From the NCBI RefSeq assembly GCF_054482595.1, contig NZ_CM137008.1: 64,000 bases of DNA; one strand, given 5' to 3'. Made by a program: the position numbers and the translations under genes. This document shows, piece after piece, positions 34,670-46,021 of this stretch. Positions within the stretch are counted from its first letter, which is position 1; each line of letters starts with the position of its first letter. Below the pieces are notes generated by a model. That model was given only the letters and a program-made list of their open reading frames with translations. It was not told where the DNA came from and searched no databases.

Positions 34670-35428
34670 ATGGATGCACTACAAACACAAACTGTTATTA
34701 GTACAACCGCGCCGCAGCCCAACTACATTCCGGGGCTGATTGCGGTGGTCGGGTGTGATGGCACCGGTAAATCCACGCTGACCACCGACCTGGTGAAATC
34801 GCTGCAACAACACTGGCAAACCGAGCGCCGCTATTTGGGGCTGCTCTCCGGCGAAGACGGCGACAAAATCAAACGATTGCCGTTGGTTGGCGTCTGGCTG
34901 GAACGGCGACTGGCGGCCAAATCCTCGAAAACCCAAAGCATGAAAACCAAATCTCCGGCGCTATGGGCGGCGGTGATTATGTACTGCTTCTCGCTGCGAA
35001 GAATGGCGAATCTACGCAAGGTTCAGCGACTGGCGCAAAGTGGCGTTCTGGTGGTCAGCGATCGCTTCCCGCAGGCTGAAATTTCGGGCTTTTATTATGA
35101 CGGACCGGGGATCGGCGTCGAACGTGCGACCGGGAAAATAAGCATGTTTCTGGCGCAGCGCGAACGGCGTTTATACCAACAAATGGCGCAATATCGCCCG
35201 GAATTAATTATTCGCCTGGGCATTGATATTGAGACTGCCATCTCCCGCAAGCCTGACCATGACTATGCCGAGCTGCAGGACAAAATCAGTGTTATGTCGA
35301 CGATTGGCTATAACGGCACAAAAATTCTTGAGATTGATTCCAGAGCGCCCTACAGCGAAGTGCTGGAACAGGCACAGAAGGCGGTTTCTCTGGTTGCCAT
35401 CGTTTCTGACCGCCGAAGTTTAACTTAA
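34670..35428 (+). CDS. yghR: P-loop NTPase, thymidylate-kinase-like fold, function unknown
   Basis: 252 aa; Walker A GCDGTGKST, VSDRFP, SRKPDHD. Confidence 0.8.
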   Translation: MDALQTQTVISTTAPQPNYIPGLIAVVGCDGTGKSTLTTDLVKSLQQHWQTERRYLGLLSGEDGDKIKRLPLVGVWLERRLAAKSSKTQSMKTKSPALWAAVIMYCFSLRRMANLRKVQRLAQSGVLVVSDRFPQAEISGFYYDGPGIGVERATGKISMFLAQRERRLYQQMAQYRPELIIRLGIDIETAISRKPDHDYAELQDKISVMSTIGYNGTKILEIDSRAPYSEVLEQAQKAVSLVAIVSDRRSLT

Positions 35429-35473
35429 GGCTGGCGGGATACTTTTTACTATCAACGATAAGGTCAGGCTGAA

Positions 35474-36823
35474 TTGGCGGGTTTTAACATCAAACATTGG
35501 TTTGCAGATGGCGCGTTTCGCACCATTATTCGCAATAGCGCCTGGTTAGGCTCCAGTAATGTCGTGAGCGCTTTGCTGGGGCTGTTGGCGCTCTCGTGTG
35601 CCGGTAAAGGGATGACGCCCGCCATGTTTGGCGTACTGGTGATTGTGCAATCGTACGCCAAGTCGATCAGCGATTTTATTAAGTTTCAGACATGGCAGCT
35701 GGTGGTTCAGTACGGAACGCCAGCCTTGACCAACAATAATCTGCAGCAATTTCGCAATGTCGTCTCATTTTCCTTCTCGCTGGATATCGTCAGCGGCGCG
35801 GTGGCGATTGTCGGCGGCATTGCCTTACTGCCATTCCTTTCCCATTCATTAGGTCTGGATGACCAAAGCTTTTGGCTGGCGGCGCTGTATTGCACGCTCA
35901 TTCCTTCAATGGCTTCCTCCACGCCGACCGGCATTCTGCGTGCGGTAGATCGCTTTGATTTGATTGCTGTACAGCAGGCGACGAAACCTTTTCTGCGCGC
36001 AGCGGGGAGCGTCGCAGCCTGGTATTTTGACTTTGGTTTTGAGGGTTTTGTTATTGCCTGGTACGTGTCGAATCTGGTTGGCGGCACCATGTACTGGTGG
36101 TTTGCCGCGCGCGAATTACGCCGCAGAAATATCCATAACGCCTTCAAATTGAATCTGTTTGAGTCTGCCCGACACATTAAAGGCGCGTGGAGTTTTGTCT
36201 GGTCAACCAACATTGCCCACTCCATCTGGTCGGCGCGTAACTCGTGCAGCACAGTGTTGGTGGGGATCGTGTTAGGACCCGCTGCCGCCGGGTTATTTAA
36301 AATCGCCATGACATTCTTCGACGCCGCCGGAACGCCAGCGGGTTTGCTGGGTAAAAGTTTTTACCCAGAGGTGATGCGTTTAGATCCGCGCACCACCAGA
36401 CCGTGGTTGTTAGGCGTGAAGTCCGGTTTACTGGCGGTCGGAATCGGTATTCTGGTGGCGCTCGCGGTGTTGATCGTCGGCAAGCCGCTCATTTCGCTGG
36501 TGTTTGGCGTTAAGTATCTCGAAGCGTATGACCTGATTCAGGTGATGCTGGGCGCAATTGTGATCTCGATGCTGGGCTTCCCTCAGGAGTCATTGCTATT
36601 GATGGCGGGAAAACAGCGCGCTTTTCTCGTGGCGCAAACCATCGCCTCAATCGGCTACATCGTATTGCTGTTCATGTTCTGTCATCTGTTTGGCGTGCTG
36701 GGAGCAGCGTTTGCTTACTTCGGTGGGCAATGTCTGGACGTGGCGCTCTCGTTAATTCCAACCTTAAAGGCATTTTTTCAGCGCCATTCCTTGCTTTATA
36801 ACGCAGCCGGAGAGAAATCCTGA
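35474..36823 (+). CDS. yghQ: MOP/Wzx-like polysaccharide or lipid flippase family inner membrane protein; start codon uncertain (ORF track begins at a TTG, first in-frame ATG is 46 codons in)
   Basis: 449 aa polytopic membrane protein; 45 bp after yghR; stop overlaps the start of the next ORF (TGATG). Confidence 0.75.
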   Translation: MAGFNIKHWFADGAFRTIIRNSAWLGSSNVVSALLGLLALSCAGKGMTPAMFGVLVIVQSYAKSISDFIKFQTWQLVVQYGTPALTNNNLQQFRNVVSFSFSLDIVSGAVAIVGGIALLPFLSHSLGLDDQSFWLAALYCTLIPSMASSTPTGILRAVDRFDLIAVQQATKPFLRAAGSVAAWYFDFGFEGFVIAWYVSNLVGGTMYWWFAARELRRRNIHNAFKLNLFESARHIKGAWSFVWSTNIAHSIWSARNSCSTVLVGIVLGPAAAGLFKIAMTFFDAAGTPAGLLGKSFYPEVMRLDPRTTRPWLLGVKSGLLAVGIGILVALAVLIVGKPLISLVFGVKYLEAYDLIQVMLGAIVISMLGFPQESLLLMAGKQRAFLVAQTIASIGYIVLLFMFCHLFGVLGAAFAYFGGQCLDVALSLIPTLKAFFQRHSLLYNAAGEKS

Positions 36824-37647
36824 TGATGAGAAAATATTTCCCGCTTGAGGCGAGCGAGCATCTATTTGTTGCGATTGAGGAAGATGATGTTGTTGATGCC
36901 CAGGTCAGTTTGCCGCCGACTATCGCACTAAGTTGTACCACCGAAATCATCCATGATAATTACGCGTTATGCCTGCAATTCTGGCTCAATGGCGTTGATC
37001 GTCAGGAATTACTTCGTTTAATTCGCAAACAAGCCAAAGGCGATGAGCTGACGACAGACGAGCGTAAACAGTTTAAATACATGCGAGCGCGCTACAAGCA
37101 CCTGCGTTTTGCGCAACGGCTGTATTTAAAGAAGCATCAGGCCGGATTTTTATTCGGCAAAACGACCGTTTTTCTGGGACGTTTTCAGGACGGATTTCGT
37201 AACGGTAAGAAAAATATTGTGTCGTATTACGGCAACCTGTTACGAATTTATTTAAGCTCTCCGGTCTGGTCGTTGGTGAACTATTCATTACGCCATAGCC
37301 AGTTAGAAAGCGTAAGCGGTTTTATTGCCTATCGGCAAAAGCAAATGCATGCCCTGAAAGAGATAATTGCCAAACCGCGACTAACCGGCAGGGAATTTCA
37401 TGATGTGCGAAAAATCATCAGCCAGCAGGTTTCTTATTACGACACCTTAAGATCGCTTGATCCTGAAAATAAAGAGGCGTTACAGATTTCCCGTTTCCTC
37501 GCCGCCATTAATGGCCTGATGGGGGATAAACACGACGACATGGTGGCGGATGATATGGAAAACCGCCAGTCGTATGATGCACCGGTGGCGCTGGATAGCG
37601 ATATTCGCCAGCGCTTAGAGCTGCTGATTTCGCGTTTTCCGCTATAA
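36823..37647 (+). CDS. Hypothetical soluble protein, function unknown
   Basis: 274 aa ORF, no predicted TM segment or signal peptide, start overlaps the yghQ stop; no family recognised from sequence alone. Confidence 0.6.
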   Translation: MMRKYFPLEASEHLFVAIEEDDVVDAQVSLPPTIALSCTTEIIHDNYALCLQFWLNGVDRQELLRLIRKQAKGDELTTDERKQFKYMRARYKHLRFAQRLYLKKHQAGFLFGKTTVFLGRFQDGFRNGKKNIVSYYGNLLRIYLSSPVWSLVNYSLRHSQLESVSGFIAYRQKQMHALKEIIAKPRLTGREFHDVRKIISQQVSYYDTLRSLDPENKEALQISRFLAAINGLMGDKHDDMVADDMENRQSYDAPVALDSDIRQRLELLISRFPL

Positions 37648-37655
37648 CCGGAGCA

Positions 37656-38219
37656 ATGATGTCATCTCGTTTGATTATTGCGCTGATTATCATGCTCTTA
37701 GCCCCGGGTGTGCAGGCACACAATTTCGTCACTGGCAAAACGGTTACCCCTGTTTATATTCAGGAAGGCGGCGAGCTGCTTCTGAATAGCGACGACGAAA
37801 TTCACTACCAAAAGTGGAACAGCACACAATTGGCGGGAAAAGTCCGAATTATCCAGTATATCGCCGGGCGTAAGTCGGCGAAGAAAAAGAACTCACTGTT
37901 AATTAAAGCGGTTGAAGCGGCAAACTTTCCGCAGGATCGTTTTCAGCCCACCACCATTGTGAACACTGATGATGCCATCTTTGGTACTGGCTATTTTGTC
38001 GTTGGCAAAATCGAAAAAAATAAACGGCGCTATCCGTGGGCGCAATTCGTTATTGACGGCAATGGACAGGGACGCGTTGCCTGGCGCTTGCCGGAGCAGA
38101 GTTCAACCATTCTGGTGCTGAATAAAGCTGGGCAAATTCAGTGGGCAAAGGACGGCAGCCTGACGCCGGAAGAGGTAGATCAGGTCATTGCGCTGGCGCA
38201 GAAACTGATCAATGAATAA
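37656..38219 (+). CDS. Secreted/periplasmic protein (possibly YtfJ-family-like)
   Basis: 187 aa; cleavable signal peptide MMSSRLIIALIIMLLAPGVQA; Shine-Dalgarno ccggag upstream; family assignment by recollection only. Confidence 0.6.
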   Translation: MMSSRLIIALIIMLLAPGVQAHNFVTGKTVTPVYIQEGGELLLNSDDEIHYQKWNSTQLAGKVRIIQYIAGRKSAKKKNSLLIKAVEAANFPQDRFQPTTIVNTDDAIFGTGYFVVGKIEKNKRRYPWAQFVIDGNGQGRVAWRLPEQSSTILVLNKAGQIQWAKDGSLTPEEVDQVIALAQKLINE

Positions 38220-38249
38220 AAAACTCAAAGGATTGAGGGCGTTAGTGAG

Positions 38250-39320
38250 ATGAAGCTGGTTGAACACTACATCATGCGTGGTACGCGCCGTCTGGTGCTG
38301 ATTATCGTCGGTTTTCTGATCTTTATTTTCGCCAGCTACTCCGCACAGCGTTATCTGACCGAAGCGGCAAATGGGACATTAGCACTTGATGTTGTGCTGG
38401 ATATCGTTTTCTACAAAGTGCTGATTGCACTGGAGATGTTGTTACCTGTTGGACTGTATGTGTCAGTTGGCGTGACGCTAGGGCAGATGTATACCGACTC
38501 GGAAATTACCGCTATCTCTGCGGCGGGGGGCAGTCCGGGACGCTTGTACAAAGCCGTTCTTTATCTGGCGATACCGCTAAGTATTTTTGTCACCCTTCTG
38601 TCGATGTATGGTCGTCCGTGGGCTTATGCGCAGATTTATCAACTGGAGCAGCAGTCGCAGTCGGAGCTGGATGTTCGCCAGTTGCGGGCAAAGAAATTTA
38701 ACACTAACGATAACGGACGAATGATCCTTTCGCAGACGGTTGATCAGGATAATAATCGCCTGACTGACGCGCTGATTTATACTTCTACTGCCAATCGAAC
38801 CCGCATTTTCCGCGCCCGTTCGGTTGATGTGGTTGACCCATCACCCGAGAAACCGACCGTTATGTTGCACAACGGCACTGCCTATCTTCTCGATCATCAG
38901 GGTCGTGACGACAACGAACAGATCTACCGTAATCTGCAATTACATCTGAATCCGCTGGATCAAAGCCCTAACGTCAAACGCAAAGCAAAATCGGTCACGG
39001 AGCTGGCGCGCTCCGCCTTTCCTGCCGATCATGCCGAACTGCAATGGCGACAAAGCCGTGGCCTGACCGCATTGTTGATGGCGCTGCTGGCCATTTCATT
39101 AAGTCGGGTAAAACCGCGGCAGGGGCGATTTTCAACGTTATTGCCACTGACGTTGCTGTTTATTGCCATTTTTTATGGCGGCGACGTCTGCCGTACGCTG
39201 GTGGCTAACGGCGCGATTCCTCTCATTCCTGGTTTGTGGTTAGTGCCCGGACTCATGCTAATGGGCCTGCTGATGCTGGTTGCACGCGACTTCACTTTGC
39301 TGCAGAAATTTTCCCGATGA
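38250..39320 (+). CDS. LptF-like permease (YjgP/YjgQ family)
   Basis: 356 aa; N-terminal TM bundle, large periplasmic domain, C-terminal TMs; conserved RxGRxS-type segment (RVKPRQGRFSTLLP) typical of LptF/LptG. Confidence 0.7.
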   Translation: MKLVEHYIMRGTRRLVLIIVGFLIFIFASYSAQRYLTEAANGTLALDVVLDIVFYKVLIALEMLLPVGLYVSVGVTLGQMYTDSEITAISAAGGSPGRLYKAVLYLAIPLSIFVTLLSMYGRPWAYAQIYQLEQQSQSELDVRQLRAKKFNTNDNGRMILSQTVDQDNNRLTDALIYTSTANRTRIFRARSVDVVDPSPEKPTVMLHNGTAYLLDHQGRDDNEQIYRNLQLHLNPLDQSPNVKRKAKSVTELARSAFPADHAELQWRQSRGLTALLMALLAISLSRVKPRQGRFSTLLPLTLLFIAIFYGGDVCRTLVANGAIPLIPGLWLVPGLMLMGLLMLVARDFTLLQKFSR

Positions 39321-40396
39321 ATGTTTTCAGTCGCTATTTAATCCGTCATCTCTTTCTCGGTTTTGCCGCCGCCGCAGGGTTATTGCTGCCGCTTTTTACT
39401 ACCTTCAACCTGATTAACGAACTGGATGATGTCAGCCCGGGCGGTTATCGCTGGACTCAGGCGGTGCTGGTGGTGCTGATGACCTTACCGCGTACACTGG
39501 TCGAACTTTCGCCGTTTATCGCCTTATTGGGAGGGATTGTTGGCCTGGGGCAGTTATCGAAAAACAGTGAGCTTACCGCCATTCGCAGCACGGGGTTTTC
39601 TATCTTCCGTATTGCACTGGTGGCGCTGGTTGCCGGGATATTGTGGACTGTTTCGTTAGGCGCGATAGATGAGTGGGTGGCGTCGCCATTGCAGCAACAG
39701 GCGCTGCAAATCAAATCGACCGCCACCGCGTTAGGGGAGGACGATGACATTACCGGCAATATGCTGTGGGCCAGGCGCGGCAATGAATTTGTGACGGTGA
39801 AATCGCTGAATGAACAGGGCCAGCCGGTGGGCGTGGAGATTTTTCATTATCGTGACGATCTCTCGCTCGAATCCTACATTTATGCACGCAGTGCCACCAT
39901 TGAAGACGACAAAACGTGGATCCTGCATGGTGTGAATCATAAAAAATGGCTGAATGGCAAAGAAACGCTGGAAACATTAGATAATCTTGCCTGGCAATCG
40001 GCCTTCACCAGTATGGATCTTGAAGAGTTATCAATGCCGGGCAATACTTTTTCTGTCCGTCAGCTTAATCATTACATCCATTATTTGCAGGAAACCGGGC
40101 AACCCAGCAGCGAATACCGCCTTGCACTGTGGGAAAAACTGGGGCAACCCATCCTGACCCTGGCGATGATTTTGCTGGCTGTGCCGTTTACCTTTAGCGC
40201 CCCGCGCTCGCCAGGGATGGGTAGCCGTCTCGCTGTAGGCGTCATCGTTGGCTTACTCACCTGGATCAGCTATCAAATCATGGTCAATCTGGGTTTGCTA
40301 TTTGCGTTGAGCGCACCTGTTTTCGCGCTCGGTTTACCGGTAGCGTTTGTGTTGATGGCGTTGAGCCTGGTGTATTGGTATGACAGACAATATTAA
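39317..40396 (+). CDS. LptG-like permease (YjgP/YjgQ family); ORF track start at 39236 is over-extended, with the likely start at the ATG overlapping the upstream stop (ATGA)
   Basis: Translation from MNVFSRYLIRHLFLGF; same architecture as LptG, including a NHYIHYLQETGQ segment comparable to the LptG region around YVKYLKSSGQ. Confidence 0.7.
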   Translation: MNVFSRYLIRHLFLGFAAAAGLLLPLFTTFNLINELDDVSPGGYRWTQAVLVVLMTLPRTLVELSPFIALLGGIVGLGQLSKNSELTAIRSTGFSIFRIALVALVAGILWTVSLGAIDEWVASPLQQQALQIKSTATALGEDDDITGNMLWARRGNEFVTVKSLNEQGQPVGVEIFHYRDDLSLESYIYARSATIEDDKTWILHGVNHKKWLNGKETLETLDNLAWQSAFTSMDLEELSMPGNTFSVRQLNHYIHYLQETGQPSSEYRLALWEKLGQPILTLAMILLAVPFTFSAPRSPGMGSRLAVGVIVGLLTWISYQIMVNLGLLFALSAPVFALGLPVAFVLMALSLVYWYDRQY

Positions 40397-40430
40397 ACCC
40401 GCCGTGGCGCAACACCACAGCGGGCTCACA

Positions 40431-41603
40431 TTACTGCTTCAGAGTAGCAAATGCTTGAATGATGGCATCGATTTGCTCACGACTGTGGGCAGCGTTTACG
40501 CTACAGCGCAGCAGCGTGATGCCTGCAGGCGCGGCAGGTGGCAGGATAAGATTCACATAAACGCCCAGCGAAATAAGCTCGCGCCAGATGCGTAAACCGT
40601 CCTCTTTCGAACCGATTATTACCGGCACTACCGGGCTAATATGTGAACTTAACTCATAACCCAGTTTTTGCAGACCGTCATACAGATGGTTGGCATTATC
40701 CATCAGCTTTTGCCGCAGCTCTGGTTGTGTGGCAATAGTTCTTAACGACGAGCGCACGGTCGCAATGCAGGACGGAGAAGGAGAGGCGGTAAAAATATAC
40801 GGGCGGCTGCCGTAGCGCAGCACTTCCATCGCTTCCGAACCGACAGCAAAACCGCCAATCGAGGCCAGACTTTTACTGAAGGTGCCAACGATAATATCCA
40901 CATCATCTTCAACGCCAACGGCTTCAGCCAGTCCGCGCCCCGTTGCGCCTAACACGCCAAACGAATGCGCTTCATCGACAATCAAATAACCACCGAGACG
41001 ACGTTTGATATCAACAATTTCCGCCAGCGGCGCAACGTCACCGAGCATGCTGTAGATACCCTCAACGATGATAATCGCCTCTTTCGCCCGTTCACCGAGG
41101 CGAACCATGCGCCGTTCCAGATCTTTAGCATCGTTATGGCGGAAACGAATAATTTCCGCGCCACCGAGAGAACAGGCGTCATAAATACTGGCGTGGCTGT
41201 CGGCATCCAGTAACACCACGGCGTTATGGTCGGCAAGTGCGCTGATGACGCCTAAATTAGCGGTATAACCGGTTGAAAAAACGATAGCGGTAGGGCGATT
41301 GAAAAACTCGGCAATCTCTTTCTCTAACGCCAGGTGCGGCGCATAACTGCCGTTTGCCATACGAGAACCGGTGGTGCCGGTGCCTTGGGCCGCTAACGCT
41401 GCCTGACCTTCGGCGATGGCATCATGATTAAAGGTTAAACCGAGGTAATTATTGGTCCCGGCCAGAATCACTTTTTTATTGCCGATCCGGCCTTCGGTGG
41501 CGGAATACACTTCATCAATACAGGTGCCAAACGGTGTTAACCCGTTGTCACTAAATTGCAGTCGCTCGCCAGCAAGGCGCGCATATTTATCGTATAGCCC
41601 CAT
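40431..41603 (-). CDS. Alpha-oxoamine synthase (PLP-dependent), serine-palmitoyltransferase-like
   Basis: 390 aa; PLP-lysine motif GTFSKS, RPYIFTAS, GVYVN, PPAAPAG, LLRCS motifs resembling bacterial SPT more than BioF. Confidence 0.8.
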   Translation of the reverse strand: MGLYDKYARLAGERLQFSDNGLTPFGTCIDEVYSATEGRIGNKKVILAGTNNYLGLTFNHDAIAEGQAALAAQGTGTTGSRMANGSYAPHLALEKEIAEFFNRPTAIVFSTGYTANLGVISALADHNAVVLLDADSHASIYDACSLGGAEIIRFRHNDAKDLERRMVRLGERAKEAIIIVEGIYSMLGDVAPLAEIVDIKRRLGGYLIVDEAHSFGVLGATGRGLAEAVGVEDDVDIIVGTFSKSLASIGGFAVGSEAMEVLRYGSRPYIFTASPSPSCIATVRSSLRTIATQPELRQKLMDNANHLYDGLQKLGYELSSHISPVVPVIIGSKEDGLRIWRELISLGVYVNLILPPAAPAGITLLRCSVNAAHSREQIDAIIQAFATLKQ

Positions 41604-41851
41604 TATTTATTCTCCAGCCATGGAAGTAGAGTTTCCATTAATTGCGCAGGGGTTTTGACATCCAGCAGAATATTAATAGGAATGGAAATATCGAATCTGT
41701 CTTCCAGCATCATTAAGAGATCCATCACTTTGATCGACTCCAGGCCAAGATCGTTGACGAGATCGCTGTCGGGCTTAATTTCCACACCGTTTTCGACCAA
41801 ATCCTGTAAACAGGAAAGGATGTAATCCATTACTATTTCACGATTTACCAT
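41603..41851 (-). CDS. Dedicated acyl carrier protein
   Basis: 82 aa acidic protein with phosphopantetheine-attachment-like motif DLGLESIKVMDL; 1-nt overlap with the downstream synthase. Confidence 0.75.
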   Translation of the reverse strand: MVNREIVMDYILSCLQDLVENGVEIKPDSDLVNDLGLESIKVMDLLMMLEDRFDISIPINILLDVKTPAQLMETLLPWLENK

Positions 41852-41882
41852 AGAAACGTTAACACACCTTTAAACAAGACAA

Positions 41883-42797
41883 TCAAAATAGCCCGTTGCG
41901 TAATGCGTGTTCCAGGCTAATCCCGGGAAACCAATTAATATCTTCAGAAATACGGTTATTACTTGCCGACCAGTCAACATGGGTTAATTCACCCAATTTC
42001 GAGCGGGTCAGCATGGGTTCTTTACCTGCCAGGCGACTCAATGCGGTACTGATATCCGCAAGGCAGGTGAGTACCGGCAGAGGAATACCAACCATTCGCA
42101 CGGAACCACAACGGGCGTCGGCGGCAAGCTGTCGTACGCGCTGCCAGTCATAGCCGCCGGGGACGCCATCGCATAATTCATAGGTTTGCGTCTGTACAGT
42201 TTCGGCGCTTAACCACTGACCCACTGCTTGCGCAAAATCGGTGACGTGCAGGAAAGAGAGTTGTGTATCTGGCGCACCAAGTCGTGGCAGCAGGCCGCGC
42301 AGCATCCAGTCAAACAGCGGTTTTAACTCTTTATCGCCGGGACCATACACGGCTGTCGGGCGAAAAACGCCCAGCGTAATTTTGTCAGCCATTGCAGTCA
42401 GCCGTTGTTCGGCGACGTATTTGGAATTTGCGTACCAGGAGAGTTCGGGATGGCGCGCCGCCAGCGAAGAGATAAACAGAAAACGTTGGCAAAAGCCGCT
42501 CTCTTTTGCTGCTTGCATCAGGCGCAGGCTGCCGTCAACGTTACAGTGGGTAAAAATCTCTTCTTTGTGTCCGCGCACTTGCCCGGCGCAATGGACCACC
42601 GCGCTGGCTCCGGCAACCAGTTCGCTAAGCGAATGTGTATCTTCCAGCGAACCGCGCACCCAAGTAAGATTATCATTGACGTGAGCGCGGGCAGTACGCG
42701 TCAATGCGCGAACGTGAAAGCCGCGGGCGAGCAGGTTATCGATAATATATTTACCGATAAACCCGGTAGCGCCCGTCACCGCGACAGTTTGATTCAT
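41883..42797 (-). CDS. NAD(P)-dependent epimerase/dehydratase-family reductase
   Basis: 304 aa; Rossmann motif VTGATGFIG at the N-terminus. Confidence 0.75.
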   Translation of the reverse strand: MNQTVAVTGATGFIGKYIIDNLLARGFHVRALTRTARAHVNDNLTWVRGSLEDTHSLSELVAGASAVVHCAGQVRGHKEEIFTHCNVDGSLRLMQAAKESGFCQRFLFISSLAARHPELSWYANSKYVAEQRLTAMADKITLGVFRPTAVYGPGDKELKPLFDWMLRGLLPRLGAPDTQLSFLHVTDFAQAVGQWLSAETVQTQTYELCDGVPGGYDWQRVRQLAADARCGSVRMVGIPLPVLTCLADISTALSRLAGKEPMLTRSKLGELTHVDWSASNNRISEDINWFPGISLEHALRNGLF

Positions 42798-44515
42798 GCC
42801 AGGGATTCCTGCACATGAAGACTGGCAGCATAAGCCTTCTGATAACGTTTTTTCGCTTCCGCACGGGCAGGCTTGCCGGAGGACGTTCGGGGAATACTGT
42901 GGGGCGGCAACAGATCGATAGCCGCGGTCACGCCAAATTCGCTTTGGATCCGTGCCGCCAGCGCGTGGATAAGCTGCCCGCGACGTTCTTCATCGCTGAT
43001 CCGACACTGGATCTGCAAAATGATTTTTTCCTGGGCGGTAACAAAAGCAATCGCATCGCCAGAATGAATTTCCGGTTCCTGTTCCGCAATATATTCAATA
43101 TCCTGCGGCCAGATATTACGGCCACGAATAATAATCAGATCTTTAATGCGTCCGGTGACATACAGATAACCGTCCAGCAGATAACCGAGGTCGCCAGTGT
43201 CTAACCAGCCCGTCGCGGCAATCTCGTCTTGCGAAGCCTGGTCGCCAAAGTAACCGCTCATCAGACTGGGACCGGAGATGCAAATATGGCCTACCACACG
43301 TTCCGCGACCGGCATACCTGCTTCATTGCGGATTTCAATACCATGTTCCGGCAACGCTTTGCCGCAGTTGACGAAAGTCGATACGGCGCGTGTCTCTGCA
43401 CCCGGCGCGACGGCTTTACCCTGATATTCGAGGATGTCGCGATCCACTTCGTTAACCACAACCCCGGAGGCTTCATCAGAGAAGCTGACAGCCAGCGCAT
43501 TTTCTGCCAGTCCGTAGCACGGCATGAAAGTTTTATTGTCAAAGTTAACCTGACGGAAACATTCAGCGAATTGATGGAGTTGTTCTGCGGAGATGGGTTC
43601 TGCACCAATACCAGCGACGCGCCAGCAGGAAAGATCCAGTTCAGCGAGATCTTTTTCATTCACGCGGCGCTGGCACAATTCATAGCCAAACGGCGGCGCA
43701 ACGGAAACGGTGCCGCGATTTTTACTGATCAATTTAAGCCATTGCAGAGGACGCATGGCAAAATCCTGAGTGCGCAAATAATCTACTGAAAGCTGCGTGG
43801 CGACCGGGGTCAGGAGAAAGCCGACCAGTCCCATATCATGGTAGAAAGGCAGCCAGGAGACGCAGCGGTCGCCAGGGCGTAATTTAATGCCGTCGTGGCT
43901 TATAGCACGTAGATTAGCCATCACTTCGCGATGGGTGATAATGACGCCACGGGGAAAACGGGTGCTGCCGGAGGTGTACTGGAGGTAGGCGATATCGTTC
44001 GGAACTGGACGCTGGAGCGCAACATCGGCTTCCGGTAATGCCTTATACCAGGCGTGGCTTAATACATGCAATTCGGGGTTGTTATGCGTGGCGGCATTGA
44101 CCAGCGGCAACCACTCATCACCAGTGATAATGGCAGCGGGCTGGCAACTTGCCAGTAAACCCTGCAGTTTGGCGCTCCAGGAATCCCGCTGACCGACGCC
44201 CATTGGAATCGCCAACGGGACGGCGACTAAGCCGGCATACTGGCAGGAAAAAAAAGCCTCTACGAACCCGCTACTGGTTTCGGCAATCAGTGCCACGCGA
44301 TCGCCTTTTTTCAGGTTCAGCGATAACAACCGCTTCGCACCAGCTTCGGCACGCGCTTTTAACGTCTGATATTCCAGTTGATCTTCAAGTTGGCAACGTC
44401 TGTCATAAAAATTCATTCCAGCGCTACTCAGAGCGGCGTAGTCCAAAGCATCAACCAGCGTTGGAAAATCGGCATAGCGCATAGGTAGGGAATGCGTAAA
44501 GATTTTATTAGACAT
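42794..44515 (-). CDS. Fatty-acyl-AMP ligase / acyl-CoA (acyl-ACP) synthetase family; start uncertain (44515 ATG preferred over 44542 TTG and 44482 ATG)
   Basis: About 573 aa ANL-superfamily adenylating enzyme; AMP-binding motif YTSGSTRFPRGV; 4-nt overlap with the downstream reductase. Confidence 0.75.
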   Translation of the reverse strand: MSNKIFTHSLPMRYADFPTLVDALDYAALSSAGMNFYDRRCQLEDQLEYQTLKARAEAGAKRLLSLNLKKGDRVALIAETSSGFVEAFFSCQYAGLVAVPLAIPMGVGQRDSWSAKLQGLLASCQPAAIITGDEWLPLVNAATHNNPELHVLSHAWYKALPEADVALQRPVPNDIAYLQYTSGSTRFPRGVIITHREVMANLRAISHDGIKLRPGDRCVSWLPFYHDMGLVGFLLTPVATQLSVDYLRTQDFAMRPLQWLKLISKNRGTVSVAPPFGYELCQRRVNEKDLAELDLSCWRVAGIGAEPISAEQLHQFAECFRQVNFDNKTFMPCYGLAENALAVSFSDEASGVVVNEVDRDILEYQGKAVAPGAETRAVSTFVNCGKALPEHGIEIRNEAGMPVAERVVGHICISGPSLMSGYFGDQASQDEIAATGWLDTGDLGYLLDGYLYVTGRIKDLIIIRGRNIWPQDIEYIAEQEPEIHSGDAIAFVTAQEKIILQIQCRISDEERRGQLIHALAARIQSEFGVTAAIDLLPPHSIPRTSSGKPARAEAKKRYQKAYAASLHVQESLA

Positions 44516-44878
44516 ATACACCACGAAAAAATTGGATATCAAAAATAAAATGACAATAATGCGGTGGATTATATAGGTATAAAAGATAAATGAGATAGTA
44601 TTTTCATTGGTGTGATATTGAACATTGATTAAAATAATGCTTTAAATCTTAACTCTGTTTATTGTGAATAATATTTAATTTATGAATATATTAAGATAAT
44701 GCCCTGGTGGGTCGCATTAAATCCACAATAGTCATGTTGATCGGCTAACGGTGGCGCTGGTGTATCGTAATTATTCATAAATATTATTTTATTTTTCCTT
44801 ATATTCATTGCGTGGATAGTTAAGGTACCGTCCGTTGCTGTTTATTTTCAGCATTAATTATTTGTTATCCACTAAGCT

Positions 44879-46021
44879 ATGGAACGCGATCTGCTGATGA
44901 TTAAAATTGAAAAAGTAATAAATAAAAACGACTTAAAGGCATTTATCGCTTTTCCGTCATTACTTTATCCCGACGATCCAAACTGGATACCCCCTTTATT
45001 CATTGAACGCAACGAGCATTTGTCTGCGAAAAATCCGGGGACGGACCATATCATCTGGCAGGCGTGGGTGGCAAAAAAAGCGGGGCAGATAGTTGGGCGT
45101 ATTACCGCGCAAATAGATACCTTGCACCGCGAGCGTTACGGCAAAGATACCGGTCATTTCGGCATGATTGACGCCATTGATGATCCGCAGGTTTTTGCCG
45201 CGTTGTTTGGCGCAGCGGAAGCGTGGTTGAAGTCACAAGGTGCAAGTAAGATCAGCGGTCCTTTCAGCCTGAATATCAATCAGGAAAGCGGATTACTGAT
45301 TGAAGGTTTCGATACACCACCCTGTGCGATGATGCCGCACGGTAAACCGTGGTATGCCGCGCATATTGAACAATTGGGTTATCACAAAGGCATTGATTTA
45401 CTGGCGTGGTGGATGCAGCGAACCGATCTCACTTTCTCTCCGGCGCTAAAAAAACTGATGGATCAGGTGCGCAAAAAGGTGACCATTCGCTGCATCAATC
45501 GCCAGCGGTTTGCCGAAGAGATGCAGATCCTGCGTGAGATTTTCAACTCTGGCTGGCAGCACAACTGGGGATTTGTGCCGTTTACCGAACATGAATTCGC
45601 GACCATGGGCGACCAACTTAAATATCTGGTGCCGGACGATATGATCTACATCGCTGAGATTGATTCTGCACCCTGCGCGTTTATTGTCGGCTTGCCGAAC
45701 ATCAACGAGGCGATTGCCGATCTGAACGGATCGCTCTTTCCCTTCGGCTGGGCAAAATTGCTGTGGCGTTTGAAAGTCAGCGGTGTGCGAACTGCGCGAG
45801 TACCGCTGATGGGCGTGCGCGACGAGTATCAGTTCAGCCGCATCGGCCCGGTGATTGCGCTGTTATTGATTGAAGCCTTACGCGATCCGTTTGCCCGCCG
45901 GAAGATCGATGCGCTGGAGATGTCATGGATCCTCGAAACCAATACAGGCATGAATAACATGCTGGAACGCATTGGGGCGGAGCCGTACAAGCGTTACCGA
46001 TTGTATGAAAAGCAGATTTAA
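44879..46021 (+). CDS. yghO: GNAT-like acyltransferase-family protein (intact here; an IS5-disrupted pseudogene in K-12, from memory)
   Basis: 380 aa uninterrupted ORF divergent from the synthase operon across a 336-bp AT-rich region; GNAT assignment is tentative. Confidence 0.65.
   Translation: MERDLLMIKIEKVINKNDLKAFIAFPSLLYPDDPNWIPPLFIERNEHLSAKNPGTDHIIWQAWVAKKAGQIVGRITAQIDTLHRERYGKDTGHFGMIDAIDDPQVFAALFGAAEAWLKSQGASKISGPFSLNINQESGLLIEGFDTPPCAMMPHGKPWYAAHIEQLGYHKGIDLLAWWMQRTDLTFSPALKKLMDQVRKKVTIRCINRQRFAEEMQILREIFNSGWQHNWGFVPFTEHEFATMGDQLKYLVPDDMIYIAEIDSAPCAFIVGLPNINEAIADLNGSLFPFGWAKLLWRLKVSGVRTARVPLMGVRDEYQFSRIGPVIALLLIEALRDPFARRKIDALEMSWILETNTGMNNMLERIGAEPYKRYRLYEKQI

What the first reader, a model, noticed from the sequence alone, without database searches (positions are those of the whole stretch)
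36823..37647. 274-aa soluble protein of unknown function, translationally coupled to the flippase
Its ATG overlaps the yghQ stop (TGATG). It has no TM segment, no signal peptide and no motif I can recognise from sequence. Its position between a flippase and periplasmic or export components makes it a candidate for an unrecognised enzyme or regulator in the pathway.
Basis: seen in the sequence. Interest (0 to 1): 0.5.

Follow-up and report, generated by a model that had tools for sequence, protein, structure and literature searches.

The report
Divergent CHAD protein beside sphingolipid flippase
The 274-residue "hypothetical" protein is a real, strongly conserved gene whose predicted fold is a divergent CHAD domain (a phosphate-chain-binding helical bundle), and it is almost always encoded immediately after a candidate lipid flippase in bacterial sphingolipid gene clusters, which points to an unstudied accessory step in making or exporting these lipids.

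Summary
A 274-aa ORF lies at 36823-37647 (+). Its ATG shares one base with the stop codon of the 449-aa MOP flippase YghQ (TGATG). It has no TM segment and no signal peptide, and no Pfam, NCBIfam or PDB sequence hit. It is a real gene: dN/dS is 0.07-0.08 and it is present in 4165 of 5426 complete E. coli genomes. K-12 lost it through an IS5-associated deletion.

In 78 genome loci from Enterobacterales, Rhodanobacteraceae, Sphingomonadales and Acetobacteraceae, the flippase-to-target order and the stop/start overlap are nearly universal. The pair is accompanied by thymidylate-kinase-like P-loop proteins (YghR/S/T) and often by spt, acpR, cerR, aasR, bCerS and LptF2/G2.

The best reading is a non-catalytic, phosphate-anion-binding accessory of a sphingolipid head-group phosphorylation and flipping module. 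The fold and the pathway link are well supported. The mechanism is inferred. A fused-chain AF2 test for a flippase complex gave no support (pTM 0.56). I found no paper that links CHAD domains to sphingolipids.

The parts
36823..37647 (+). Target CDS: a 274-aa cytoplasmic, basic (pI 9.2), all-alpha protein that forms a divergent stand-alone CHAD-fold domain. Conserved motifs are K85-x2-R88-x3-K92-x2-R95, H105, G119-x2-Q122-D123, H193-x2-R196-K197 and N230-x2-M233-G234-x2-H237-D238.
36809..36814 (+). GGAGAG Shine-Dalgarno sequence for the target, located inside the 3' end of the flippase gene.
   Evidence: read from the sequence
35474..36823 (+). Full-length yghQ, a 449-aa MOP/Wzx-type (Polysacc_synt) flippase. 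Its stop codon overlaps the target's ATG by one base.
34670..35428 (+). yghR, a thymidylate-kinase-like P-loop protein.
33925..34638 (+). yghS, a thymidylate-kinase-like P-loop protein and first gene of the + strand operon. A promoter-like site lies at 33847-33875.
33059..33751 (-). yghT, the third thymidylate-kinase-like paralog, transcribed divergently.
37659..38219 (+). YtfJ-family protein with a signal peptide (periplasmic), 11 nt downstream of the target.
38250..39320 (+). LptF paralog (LptF2).
   Evidence: bioRxiv 10.64898/2026.04.12.717747
39317..40396 (+). LptG paralog (LptG2), the last gene of the operon.
40394..40428 (.). Hairpin with a 16-bp stem between the convergent lptG2 and spt genes. 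It is the only strong terminator-like site in 33600-40600.
40431..44482 (-). spt, acpR, the epimerase/reductase gene (cerR) and aasR: the ceramide-backbone operon.
   Evidence: PMC9386255
44879..46021 (+). yghO, the bacterial ceramide synthase (bCerS) homolog.
   Evidence: PMC9386255

Best explanation
The gene encodes a cytoplasmic, non-catalytic CHAD-type domain built from two four-helix bundles, with a conserved cluster of Arg/Lys/His residues. It serves as the phosphate-anion-binding accessory of a conserved module made of YghR/S/T (thymidylate-kinase-like P-loop kinases), YghQ (a MOP flippase) and this protein. The proposed mechanism is as follows. It is made in step with the flippase through translational coupling. 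At the cytoplasmic face of the inner membrane it binds a phosphate-rich ligand, either the phosphorylated head group of the ceramide-based lipid or an oligo/polyphosphate used by the kinases. This couples head-group phosphorylation to flipping by YghQ. LptF2/G2 then extract the lipid towards the outer membrane. Status of each step: the fold, the conserved basic motifs, the conserved gene order and coupling, and the restriction of the flippase-linked subfamily to taxa that carry sphingolipid genes are shown. The ligand, the kinase substrate and any physical contact with YghQ or YghRST are inferred.

For: Sequence: the family profile hits the CHAD structure 6qv5 at E 0.0014, with both motif blocks in register. 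Pfam CHAD matches 15 of 66 members at E<=0.1, with a best value of 2.5e-5. UniProt already names orthologs from Sphingomonas, Acetobacter and Zymomonas 'CHAD domain-containing'.

Ligand-binding features: the motif K85/R88/K92/R95 and its repeat H193/R196/K197 have the same i, i+3, i+7 spacing as SsCHAD His29/Arg32/Arg36. Mutating these residues reduces polyP binding about 25-fold, and adding Arg69 abolishes it (PMC6537752). The pI is 9.16, the family median is 9.3, and 52 of 66 members exceed 8.

Context: the flippase lies directly upstream on the same strand in 72 of 85 loci, and most of the remainder have too little flank to tell. The stop/start overlap (ATGA, TGATG, TAATG or TAAATG) is kept from Escherichia to Novosphingobium. 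Thymidylate-kinase-like paralogs are present in 70 of 85 loci and remain nearby even where no flippase is seen (L063, L081, L085).

Domain logic: canonical CHAD domains are fused to or encoded in operons with polyP enzymes and enhance substrate recruitment (PMC6537752). A distant branch of this family is fused to an APH-type kinase. YghR/S/T resemble thymidylate kinases (E 2.5e-7), a class that phosphorylates a phosphate acceptor. The published Caulobacter locus has a flippase homolog but neither this protein nor thymidylate-kinase-like kinases.
Against: The E. coli protein itself does not reach any Pfam CHAD threshold. hhalign against E. coli YgiF and against a three-sequence CHAD fragment profile (E 0.03) gave no significant match, so homology rests mainly on structure.

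A fused-chain AF2 run of flippase, linker and target with 21 paired orthologs gave pTM 0.56. That is the value expected for two domains with no confident interface.

No ppk, ppx or CYTH gene is nearby, so the ligand need not be polyP. No sphingolipid with a pyro- or oligophosphate head group is documented here. Pluralibacter carries a second, unlinked copy (L026, L035). Surface electrostatics could not be computed because no coordinates are available.
Confidence: 0.5

Rival explanations
1. It is an ordinary polyphosphate-granule CHAD protein (a 'phosin') that binds cytoplasmic polyP. Its position next to the flippase would reflect shared regulation, for example by phosphate status, and not a role in the lipid pathway.
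For: It has the CHAD fold and the conserved basic motifs. Canonical stand-alone CHAD proteins bind polyP and localise to granules (PMC6537752). In E. coli the phosphate transporter gene pitB lies next to yghT.
Against: The flippase-to-target order and the overlapping stop/start persist across alpha- and gamma-proteobacterial rearrangements of the locus. No ppk, ppx or CYTH genes lie in the neighbourhoods. The subfamily is confined to taxa that carry sphingolipid genes. The pitB adjacency is seen only in Escherichia-type loci.
Confidence: 0.15
2. It is a structural cytoplasmic subunit or assembly factor of the YghQ flippase, acting as a plug, stabiliser or gate. The conserved basic residues would contact the membrane or the flippase and not a soluble ligand.
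For: Translational coupling conserved over large evolutionary distances typically accompanies stoichiometric complexes. The protein is basic and could sit on the anionic inner leaflet.
Against: The fused-chain AF2 run with paired orthologs gave pTM 0.56, so no confident interface was found. This test has limited power. The protein also occurs without a nearby flippase (L026, L035, L063, L081). The Caulobacter flippase homolog has no such partner in its locus.
Confidence: 0.15
3. It is an enzyme, for example a phosphotransferase or pyrophosphatase acting on the lipid head group, that uses the invariant His and Asp residues (H193, H237, D123, D238).
For: His and Asp residues are invariant across 66 sequences. 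The E. coli locus otherwise has few candidate head-group enzymes.
Against: The invariant residues are the hallmark CHAD motifs (HxxR and LGxxxD), which are also present in RcCHAD. CHAD structures show no conserved metal site or catalytic activity (PMC6537752). The fold is a plain double four-helix bundle.
Confidence: 0.1
4. It is a regulator, for example a sensor of phosphate, polyP or lipid intermediates, that tunes kinase or flippase activity or expression of the locus.
For: It has a ligand-binding fold with no catalytic signature.
Against: It has no DNA-binding or signalling domain. CHAD domains do not bind nucleic acids. Its position within the operon and its translational coupling suit a structural or accessory component better than a regulator.
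Confidence: 0.07

Closest known systems
Stand-alone 'long' CHAD domains (Pfam PF05235), such as Ricinus communis RcCHAD (6qv5), Chlorobium tepidum CtCHAD (3e0s) and Streptomyces PptA (6rn5)
   Different: The E. coli protein falls below the Pfam threshold. His is replaced by Lys in the first motif. There is an extra conserved N-terminal segment (D22, P31). The genomic partners are a MOP flippase, thymidylate-kinase-like kinases and sphingolipid genes, not PPK, PPX or CYTH. PolyP binding has not been tested.
E. coli YgiF (a CYTH triphosphatase fused to a 'short' CHAD domain)
   Same: It is the other CHAD-type domain in the same genome. In YgiF the CHAD domain enhances the activity of the attached phosphate-chain enzyme (PMC6537752). 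This is the functional analogy used here.
Caulobacter crescentus sphingolipid locus (CC_1152-CC_1168: the Cpg head-group enzymes, the CC_1166 flippase and LptF2/G2/C2)
   Same: It has the same core genes (spt, acpR, cerR, aasR, bCerS), a Polysacc_synt flippase homolog and LptF2/G2 paralogs.
   Different: The published Caulobacter locus lists no CHAD-like protein and no thymidylate-kinase-like kinases. Its head group is built by a DAGK-type ceramide kinase, a Tam41-like enzyme and a CDP-alcohol transferase. The E. coli locus lacks those genes.

Membership tests
CHAD domain (Pfam PF05235) | Two four-helix bundles with up-down topology, related by pseudo-twofold symmetry. | tested here: met
CHAD domain (Pfam PF05235) | A conserved His/Arg/Lys helix motif (HxxRxxxR/K...R) followed by LGxxxD, present once in each half. 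| tested here: met
   R88, D123, H193, R196 and D238 are invariant. K92, R95, H105, G119, K197, G234 and H237 are at least 90% conserved across 66 sequences. Both blocks align in register to RcCHAD. In the first motif His is replaced by Lys85.
CHAD domain (Pfam PF05235) | A significant match to the family's sequence model. | tested here: not met
   The E. coli protein gives no CHAD hit in Pfam-A. Of 66 family members, 1 matches at E<=0.001 and 15 at E<=0.1. The family profile against the PDB CHAD structure gives E 0.0014. hhalign against YgiF or against a CHAD fragment profile is not significant.
CHAD domain (Pfam PF05235) | A highly basic surface or central cavity. | tested here: inconclusive
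   Composition agrees: pI is 9.16 and the family median is 9.3.
CHAD domain (Pfam PF05235) | Specific binding of inorganic polyphosphate. | not testable with these tools
   This needs biochemistry, such as GCI, ITC or gel shift with polyP of defined length, as done in PMC6537752.
CHAD domain (Pfam PF05235) | Typical genomic or domain association with polyP enzymes (CYTH/TTM fusion, or PPK/PPX operons). | tested here: not met
   The neighbours in 85 loci are a MOP flippase, thymidylate-kinase-like kinases, Lpt paralogs and spt-cluster genes. No PPK2 Pfam signal was found in YghR/S/T.
Proteobacterial sphingolipid locus component | Conserved co-location with spt, acpR, cerR, aasR and bCerS and with sphingolipid transport genes. 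| tested here: met
   spt and acpR lie within 10 kb in 50 of 85 loci. The flippase is directly upstream in 72 of 85. LptF2/G2 are present in 44-48 of 85. In Sphingomonadales the core genes are known to be scattered (PMC11324152).
Proteobacterial sphingolipid locus component | A genetic or biochemical requirement for sphingolipid synthesis or transport. | not testable with these tools
   I found no published mutant or fitness analysis of this gene.
TPR repeat protein (SEED label 'Conserved hypothetical TPR repeat protein, clustered with yghQ') | TPR repeats (34-residue helix-turn-helix repeats). | tested here: not met
   No TPR family appears in the Pfam scans of the protein or of the 66 relatives. 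The structural neighbours are CHAD bundles and not TPR solenoids.

The most novel reading that the evidence does not exclude
The YghR/S/T, YghQ and CHAD-like module makes and exports a sphingolipid whose head group carries a phosphoanhydride chain, that is, a ceramide pyrophosphate or oligophosphate. The thymidylate-kinase-like enzymes add phosphates onto a phosphate acceptor, as dTMP kinase does. The CHAD-like protein holds the growing or finished phosphate chain. The MOP flippase, a family that otherwise flips lipid-pyrophosphate-linked substrates, moves the lipid across the inner membrane to LptF2/G2. This would be a new class of bacterial envelope lipid, and the first CHAD domain to read a lipid-anchored phosphate chain instead of free polyP.
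Probability: 0.12. Interest if true: 0.85.

Novelty: new variant of a known kind. Interest (0 to 1): 0.5.

Why it matters
How bacterial sphingolipids cross the inner membrane is still open. The 2024 localisation study states that no flippase had yet been identified (PMC11087976), and the 2026 preprint addresses only LptF2/G2 (10.64898/2026.04.12.717747). What head groups Enterobacterales put on these lipids is likewise not described in the papers read here.

This analysis shows that the candidate flippase YghQ has a fixed, translationally coupled partner with a phosphate-chain-binding fold, and that the pair travels with three kinase-like proteins. Together they form a compact, testable module present in about 77% of complete E. 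coli genomes, including the B strains BL21(DE3) and ETEC B7A (PMC9386255) and UPEC strain UTI89 (locus shown in the 2026 preprint), but deleted in K-12.

The finding gives concrete residues to mutate and ligands to test. It would extend CHAD domains from polyP storage to envelope-lipid biogenesis.

Tried and rejected
- Direct sequence searches of the protein (Pfam, NCBIfam, PDB phmmer) gave nothing.
- hhalign of the family profile against a single YgiF sequence gave no match.
- I tried to build a canonical CHAD profile by searching with a 73-aa RcCHAD fragment. It returned only two short fragments. The resulting three-sequence profile aligned in register but not significantly (E 0.03).
It succeeded with a 16-sequence alignment.
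- I tested for a flippase-target complex with a fused-chain AF2 run (six GGGGS repeats as linker, 21 paired orthologs). The pTM was 0.56, so there is no confident interface. This is negative but weak evidence, because only pTM is returned, the MSA is shallow and a monomer model was used.
- I tested the idea that YghR/S/T are PPK2-type polyP kinases. There is no PPK2 signal; thymidylate kinase is the nearest family.
- The SEED 'TPR repeat' label is rejected.
- The contexts of flippase-less copies (L026, L063, L081) and of the exported distant relatives (L089-L091) were uninformative about function.
- Literature searches for yghQ/yghR plus sphingolipid, for Ybl138, and for CHAD plus sphingolipid found nothing on this gene.
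Full report
**Observation.** The window is E. coli chromosome and matches strain XH990 at 100%. The ORF at 36823-37647 (+) encodes 274 aa. The upstream 449-aa ORF (35474-36823) ends with TGA at 36821-36823. The target's ATG starts at 36823, so the two share one base (TGATG). A GGAGAG ribosome-binding site lies 8 nt upstream, at 36809-36814. RefSeq annotates the same CDS as a hypothetical protein (WP_000984951.1). The strongest 19-residue hydrophobicity window scores 0.82, and the N-terminus is not hydrophobic, so there is no TM segment and no signal peptide. Pfam, NCBIfam and PDB sequence searches return nothing significant.

**It is a real gene.** It occurs in 4165 of 5426 complete E. coli genomes, and 4127 of these cover at least 80% of the query. 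Its dN/dS against other Escherichia lineages is 0.07-0.08. It has full-length relatives down to about 21% identity, with 209 representatives in the 50%-cluster library. AlphaFold2 with a 66-sequence alignment gives pLDDT 97.1 and pTM 0.93. E. coli K-12 lacks the gene. In MG1655 an IS5 element (insH9) lies between yghO and a truncated yghQ, and everything from the 3' end of yghQ through aasR is missing. This explains why the gene has no b-number and no experimental record.

**Context.** The + strand carries yghS, yghR, yghQ (flippase), the target, a YtfJ-family periplasmic protein, and LptF and LptG paralogs. Gaps between them range from -4 to 45 nt. A promoter-like site precedes yghS. The only strong hairpin lies after lptG2. 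Convergent to this operon are spt, acpR, an epimerase/reductase gene (cerR) and aasR, followed by yghO (bCerS). These five genes are the published dihydroceramide pathway of 'Rhodobacteria', and E. coli BL21 was one of the studied cases (PMC9386255). In Caulobacter, LptF2/G2 paralogs in sphingolipid loci were recently shown to be needed for sphingolipid export. The E. coli UTI89 locus is drawn in that preprint, but the target is not discussed there. As of 2024 no sphingolipid flippase had been identified (PMC11087976).

**What the protein is.**
- The family alignment shows two similar motif blocks. The first is F-K-x-x-R-A-R-F/Y-K-H-L-R-F-A ... H ... M/L-G-x-L-Q-D. The second is F-H-x-x-R-K-I-I-S-R ... 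I-N-G-L-M-G-x-x-H-D. R88, D123, H193, R196 and D238 are invariant.
- A profile of the family hits only one PDB family at a meaningful level: the CHAD domain of Ricinus communis (6qv5, E 0.0014), with both blocks in register.
- When every member is scanned individually against Pfam, CHAD (PF05235) is the only recurrent family. It matches 15 of 66 members at E<=0.1, with a best value of 2.5e-5.
- Foldseek against AFDB50 shows that UniProt already labels orthologs with 28-42% identity and TM 0.93-0.96 as 'CHAD domain-containing protein'. These come from Sphingomonas, Acetobacter, Komagataeibacter, Zymomonas and others. The E. coli entries remain 'Uncharacterized' or 'Ybl138'.
- The protein is basic, with pI 9.16, and the family median is 9.3.
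- The SEED label 'TPR repeat protein' is not supported.

I conclude that the protein is a divergent stand-alone CHAD-fold domain. The homology is strong at the structural level and marginal at the sequence level. hhalign against YgiF, and against a poor three-sequence CHAD profile, was not significant.

**What CHAD domains do.** According to PMC6537752, CHAD domains are two four-helix bundles with pseudo-twofold symmetry. Their conserved basic residues form a basic cavity and surface patches that bind inorganic polyphosphate, but not nucleic acids. No conserved metal site or catalytic activity is known. In YgiF the CHAD domain enhances the attached triphosphatase. Mutating His29/Arg32/Arg36 in SsCHAD lowers polyP binding about 25-fold, and adding Arg69 abolishes it. 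The i, i+3, i+7 spacing of those residues corresponds to K85/R88/K92 in the target's first block, and partly to H193/R196 in the second block. This correspondence is inferred from motif spacing and the RcCHAD alignment, not from a direct SsCHAD alignment.

**Conserved partners.**
- A genome scan returned 78 loci. They come from Enterobacterales (Escherichia, Pseudocitrobacter, Hafnia, Serratia, Pantoea, Erwinia, Sodalis, Citrobacter, Rosenbergiella and others), Rhodanobacteraceae (Luteibacter, Rhodanobacter, Dyella), Carnimonas, Sphingomonadales (Sphingomonas, Sphingobium, Novosphingobium, Sphingopyxis), Bombella and two MAGs.
- I ran tblastn with the 13 window proteins against these loci. The flippase is directly upstream on the same strand in 72 of 85 target-bearing loci, and most of the others have too little upstream sequence to tell. 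Thymidylate-kinase-like paralogs are present in 70, spt and acpR in 50, and LptF2/G2 in 44-48.
- The rest of the locus is shuffled between lineages, but the flippase-to-target pair never separates.
- The flippase stop and the target start overlap or abut (ATGA, TGATG, TAATG, TAAATG) from Escherichia to Novosphingobium.
- In Sphingomonadales the conserved unit consists of two thymidylate-kinase-like genes, the flippase and the target.
- A metagenomic relative with 37% identity shows the same kinase-flippase-target triad beside LptF/G, spt, an ACP, a DAGK-type kinase and a PAP2 phosphatase.
- Where no flippase is seen within 10 kb (Carnimonas L063, beta-proteobacterial MAG L081, Lysobacterales MAG L085), a thymidylate-kinase-like gene is still nearby.
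- YghR/S/T form one family with invariant GxDGxGKS, DRYP and ARKPDH motifs. Their nearest solved relatives are thymidylate kinases (E 2.5e-7), and no PPK2 signal was found.
- The published Caulobacter locus has a flippase homolog (CC_1166) but lists neither a CHAD-like protein nor thymidylate-kinase-like kinases. Its head group is built by different enzymes. I could not test whether these genes exist elsewhere in that genome.

**Mechanism.** The shown facts are the fold, the conserved basic motifs, the conserved coupling to the flippase, the co-travelling kinases and the sphingolipid setting. From these I infer a non-catalytic phosphate-anion-binding accessory. It is co-produced with YghQ. At the cytoplasmic face of the inner membrane it binds either the phosphorylated lipid head group or an oligo/polyphosphate used by YghR/S/T. 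This links head-group phosphorylation to flipping, ahead of extraction by LptF2/G2. Domain logic supports the idea. Canonical CHADs accompany enzymes that handle phosphate chains, and a distant branch of this family is fused to an APH-type kinase with two tandem copies of the domain.

One direct in silico test of a flippase complex gave no support. A fused-chain AF2 run with 21 paired orthologs gave pTM 0.56, the value expected without a confident interface. The test is weak, but it means physical association rests on translational coupling alone.

The rivals are an ordinary polyP-granule CHAD protein, a purely structural flippase subunit, an enzyme, and a regulator. Each is weighed in the report sections. 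None is excluded, but each fits the synteny, the motif pattern or the known properties of CHAD domains less well.

**Novelty.** The fold label already exists in UniProt for orthologs, so the family assignment is not new in itself. What has not been described, in the searchable literature, is the following. First, this is a distinct CHAD subfamily: it falls below the Pfam threshold and has a His-to-Lys change and a conserved N-terminal extension. Second, it is a fixed, translationally coupled partner of the candidate sphingolipid flippase and travels with three thymidylate-kinase-like proteins. I found no paper linking CHAD domains and sphingolipids, and none on this gene. I rate it a new variant of a known kind, with moderate interest (0.5).

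The most novel reading not excluded is that the module builds and exports a ceramide pyro- or oligophosphate lipid. Three observations make this coherent. Thymidylate-kinase-type enzymes phosphorylate phosphate acceptors. CHAD domains bind phosphoanhydride chains. From general knowledge, MOP flippases act on lipid-pyrophosphate-linked substrates. I put its probability at about 0.12. If true, it would be of high interest.

Noticed in passing
L088 (NC_000913.3 3130146-3132408), corresponding to window ~36500-44900: In K-12 MG1655 an IS5 element (IS5LO/insH9) sits between yghO and a truncated yghQ (355 aa instead of 449 aa). The target, the ytfJ-like gene, lptF2, lptG2, spt, acpR, cerR and aasR are all absent. 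K-12 therefore carries only remnants of the sphingolipid locus.
   Followed up: partly
window 33059-35428 (yghT, yghS, yghR): RefSeq names YghS and YghT 'dTMP kinase'. YghR, the paralog scanned against NCBIfam, scores 32 bits against that model's cut-off of 83. The three paralogs form their own family with invariant GxDGxGKS, DRYP and ARKPDH motifs and always accompany the flippase and the CHAD-like pair. The name is probably an over-annotation, and their substrate is unknown.
   Followed up: partly
L026 10001-10795 and L035 10001-10804 (Pluralibacter gergoviae and a Pluralibacter MAG): Pluralibacter has a second copy of the target (56-59% identity) away from any flippase, kinase or spt gene. 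In L026 it lies next to a BCCT transporter, an amidohydrolase and an MFS transporter.
   Followed up: partly
P0247, P0262, P0267 (L007 10001-12931, L008); P0123: Distant relatives are fusion proteins. They have an N-terminal hydrophobic segment, an APH-type kinase domain (HGDLKPxNxxxD) and two tandem copies of this CHAD-like domain. P0123 is a plain tandem duplication. None of these lies in a sphingolipid locus.
   Followed up: partly
Alignment A1 members P0157, P0215, P0217, P0219, P0234, P0235, P0240, P0245, P0260, P0263 (L089-L091): About 11 of 66 family members, all with 31% identity or less to the target, carry typical Sec signal peptides. An exported CHAD-like protein could not be binding cytoplasmic polyP. 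Their genomic contexts are unrelated to sphingolipid genes.
   Followed up: partly
window 40394-40428: A hairpin with a 16-bp stem, 9 of the pairs G-C, lies exactly between the convergent lptG2 and spt genes. It is a likely bidirectional terminator.
   Followed up: no
window 31512-33011 (pitB), next to yghT: In Escherichia-type loci the low-affinity phosphate transporter gene pitB lies directly beside the kinase, flippase and CHAD-like module. This may be coincidence, but it is notable given the phosphate-binding fold.
   Followed up: no
P0032: An E. coli protein of 280 aa, 83% identical to the target, is named 'type II secretion system protein GspM' and carries a precomputed PF04612 hit. This is probably a chimeric or mis-called gene model.
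   Followed up: no
L002 3543-20837: A metagenomic locus with a 37%-identical homolog combines the kinase-flippase-target triad with a DAGK-type kinase, a PAP2 phosphatase, an Asp/Arg hydroxylase-like protein, DUF2141 and a CDP-alcohol phosphatidyltransferase. This suggests a richer head-group chemistry than in E. coli.
   Followed up: no
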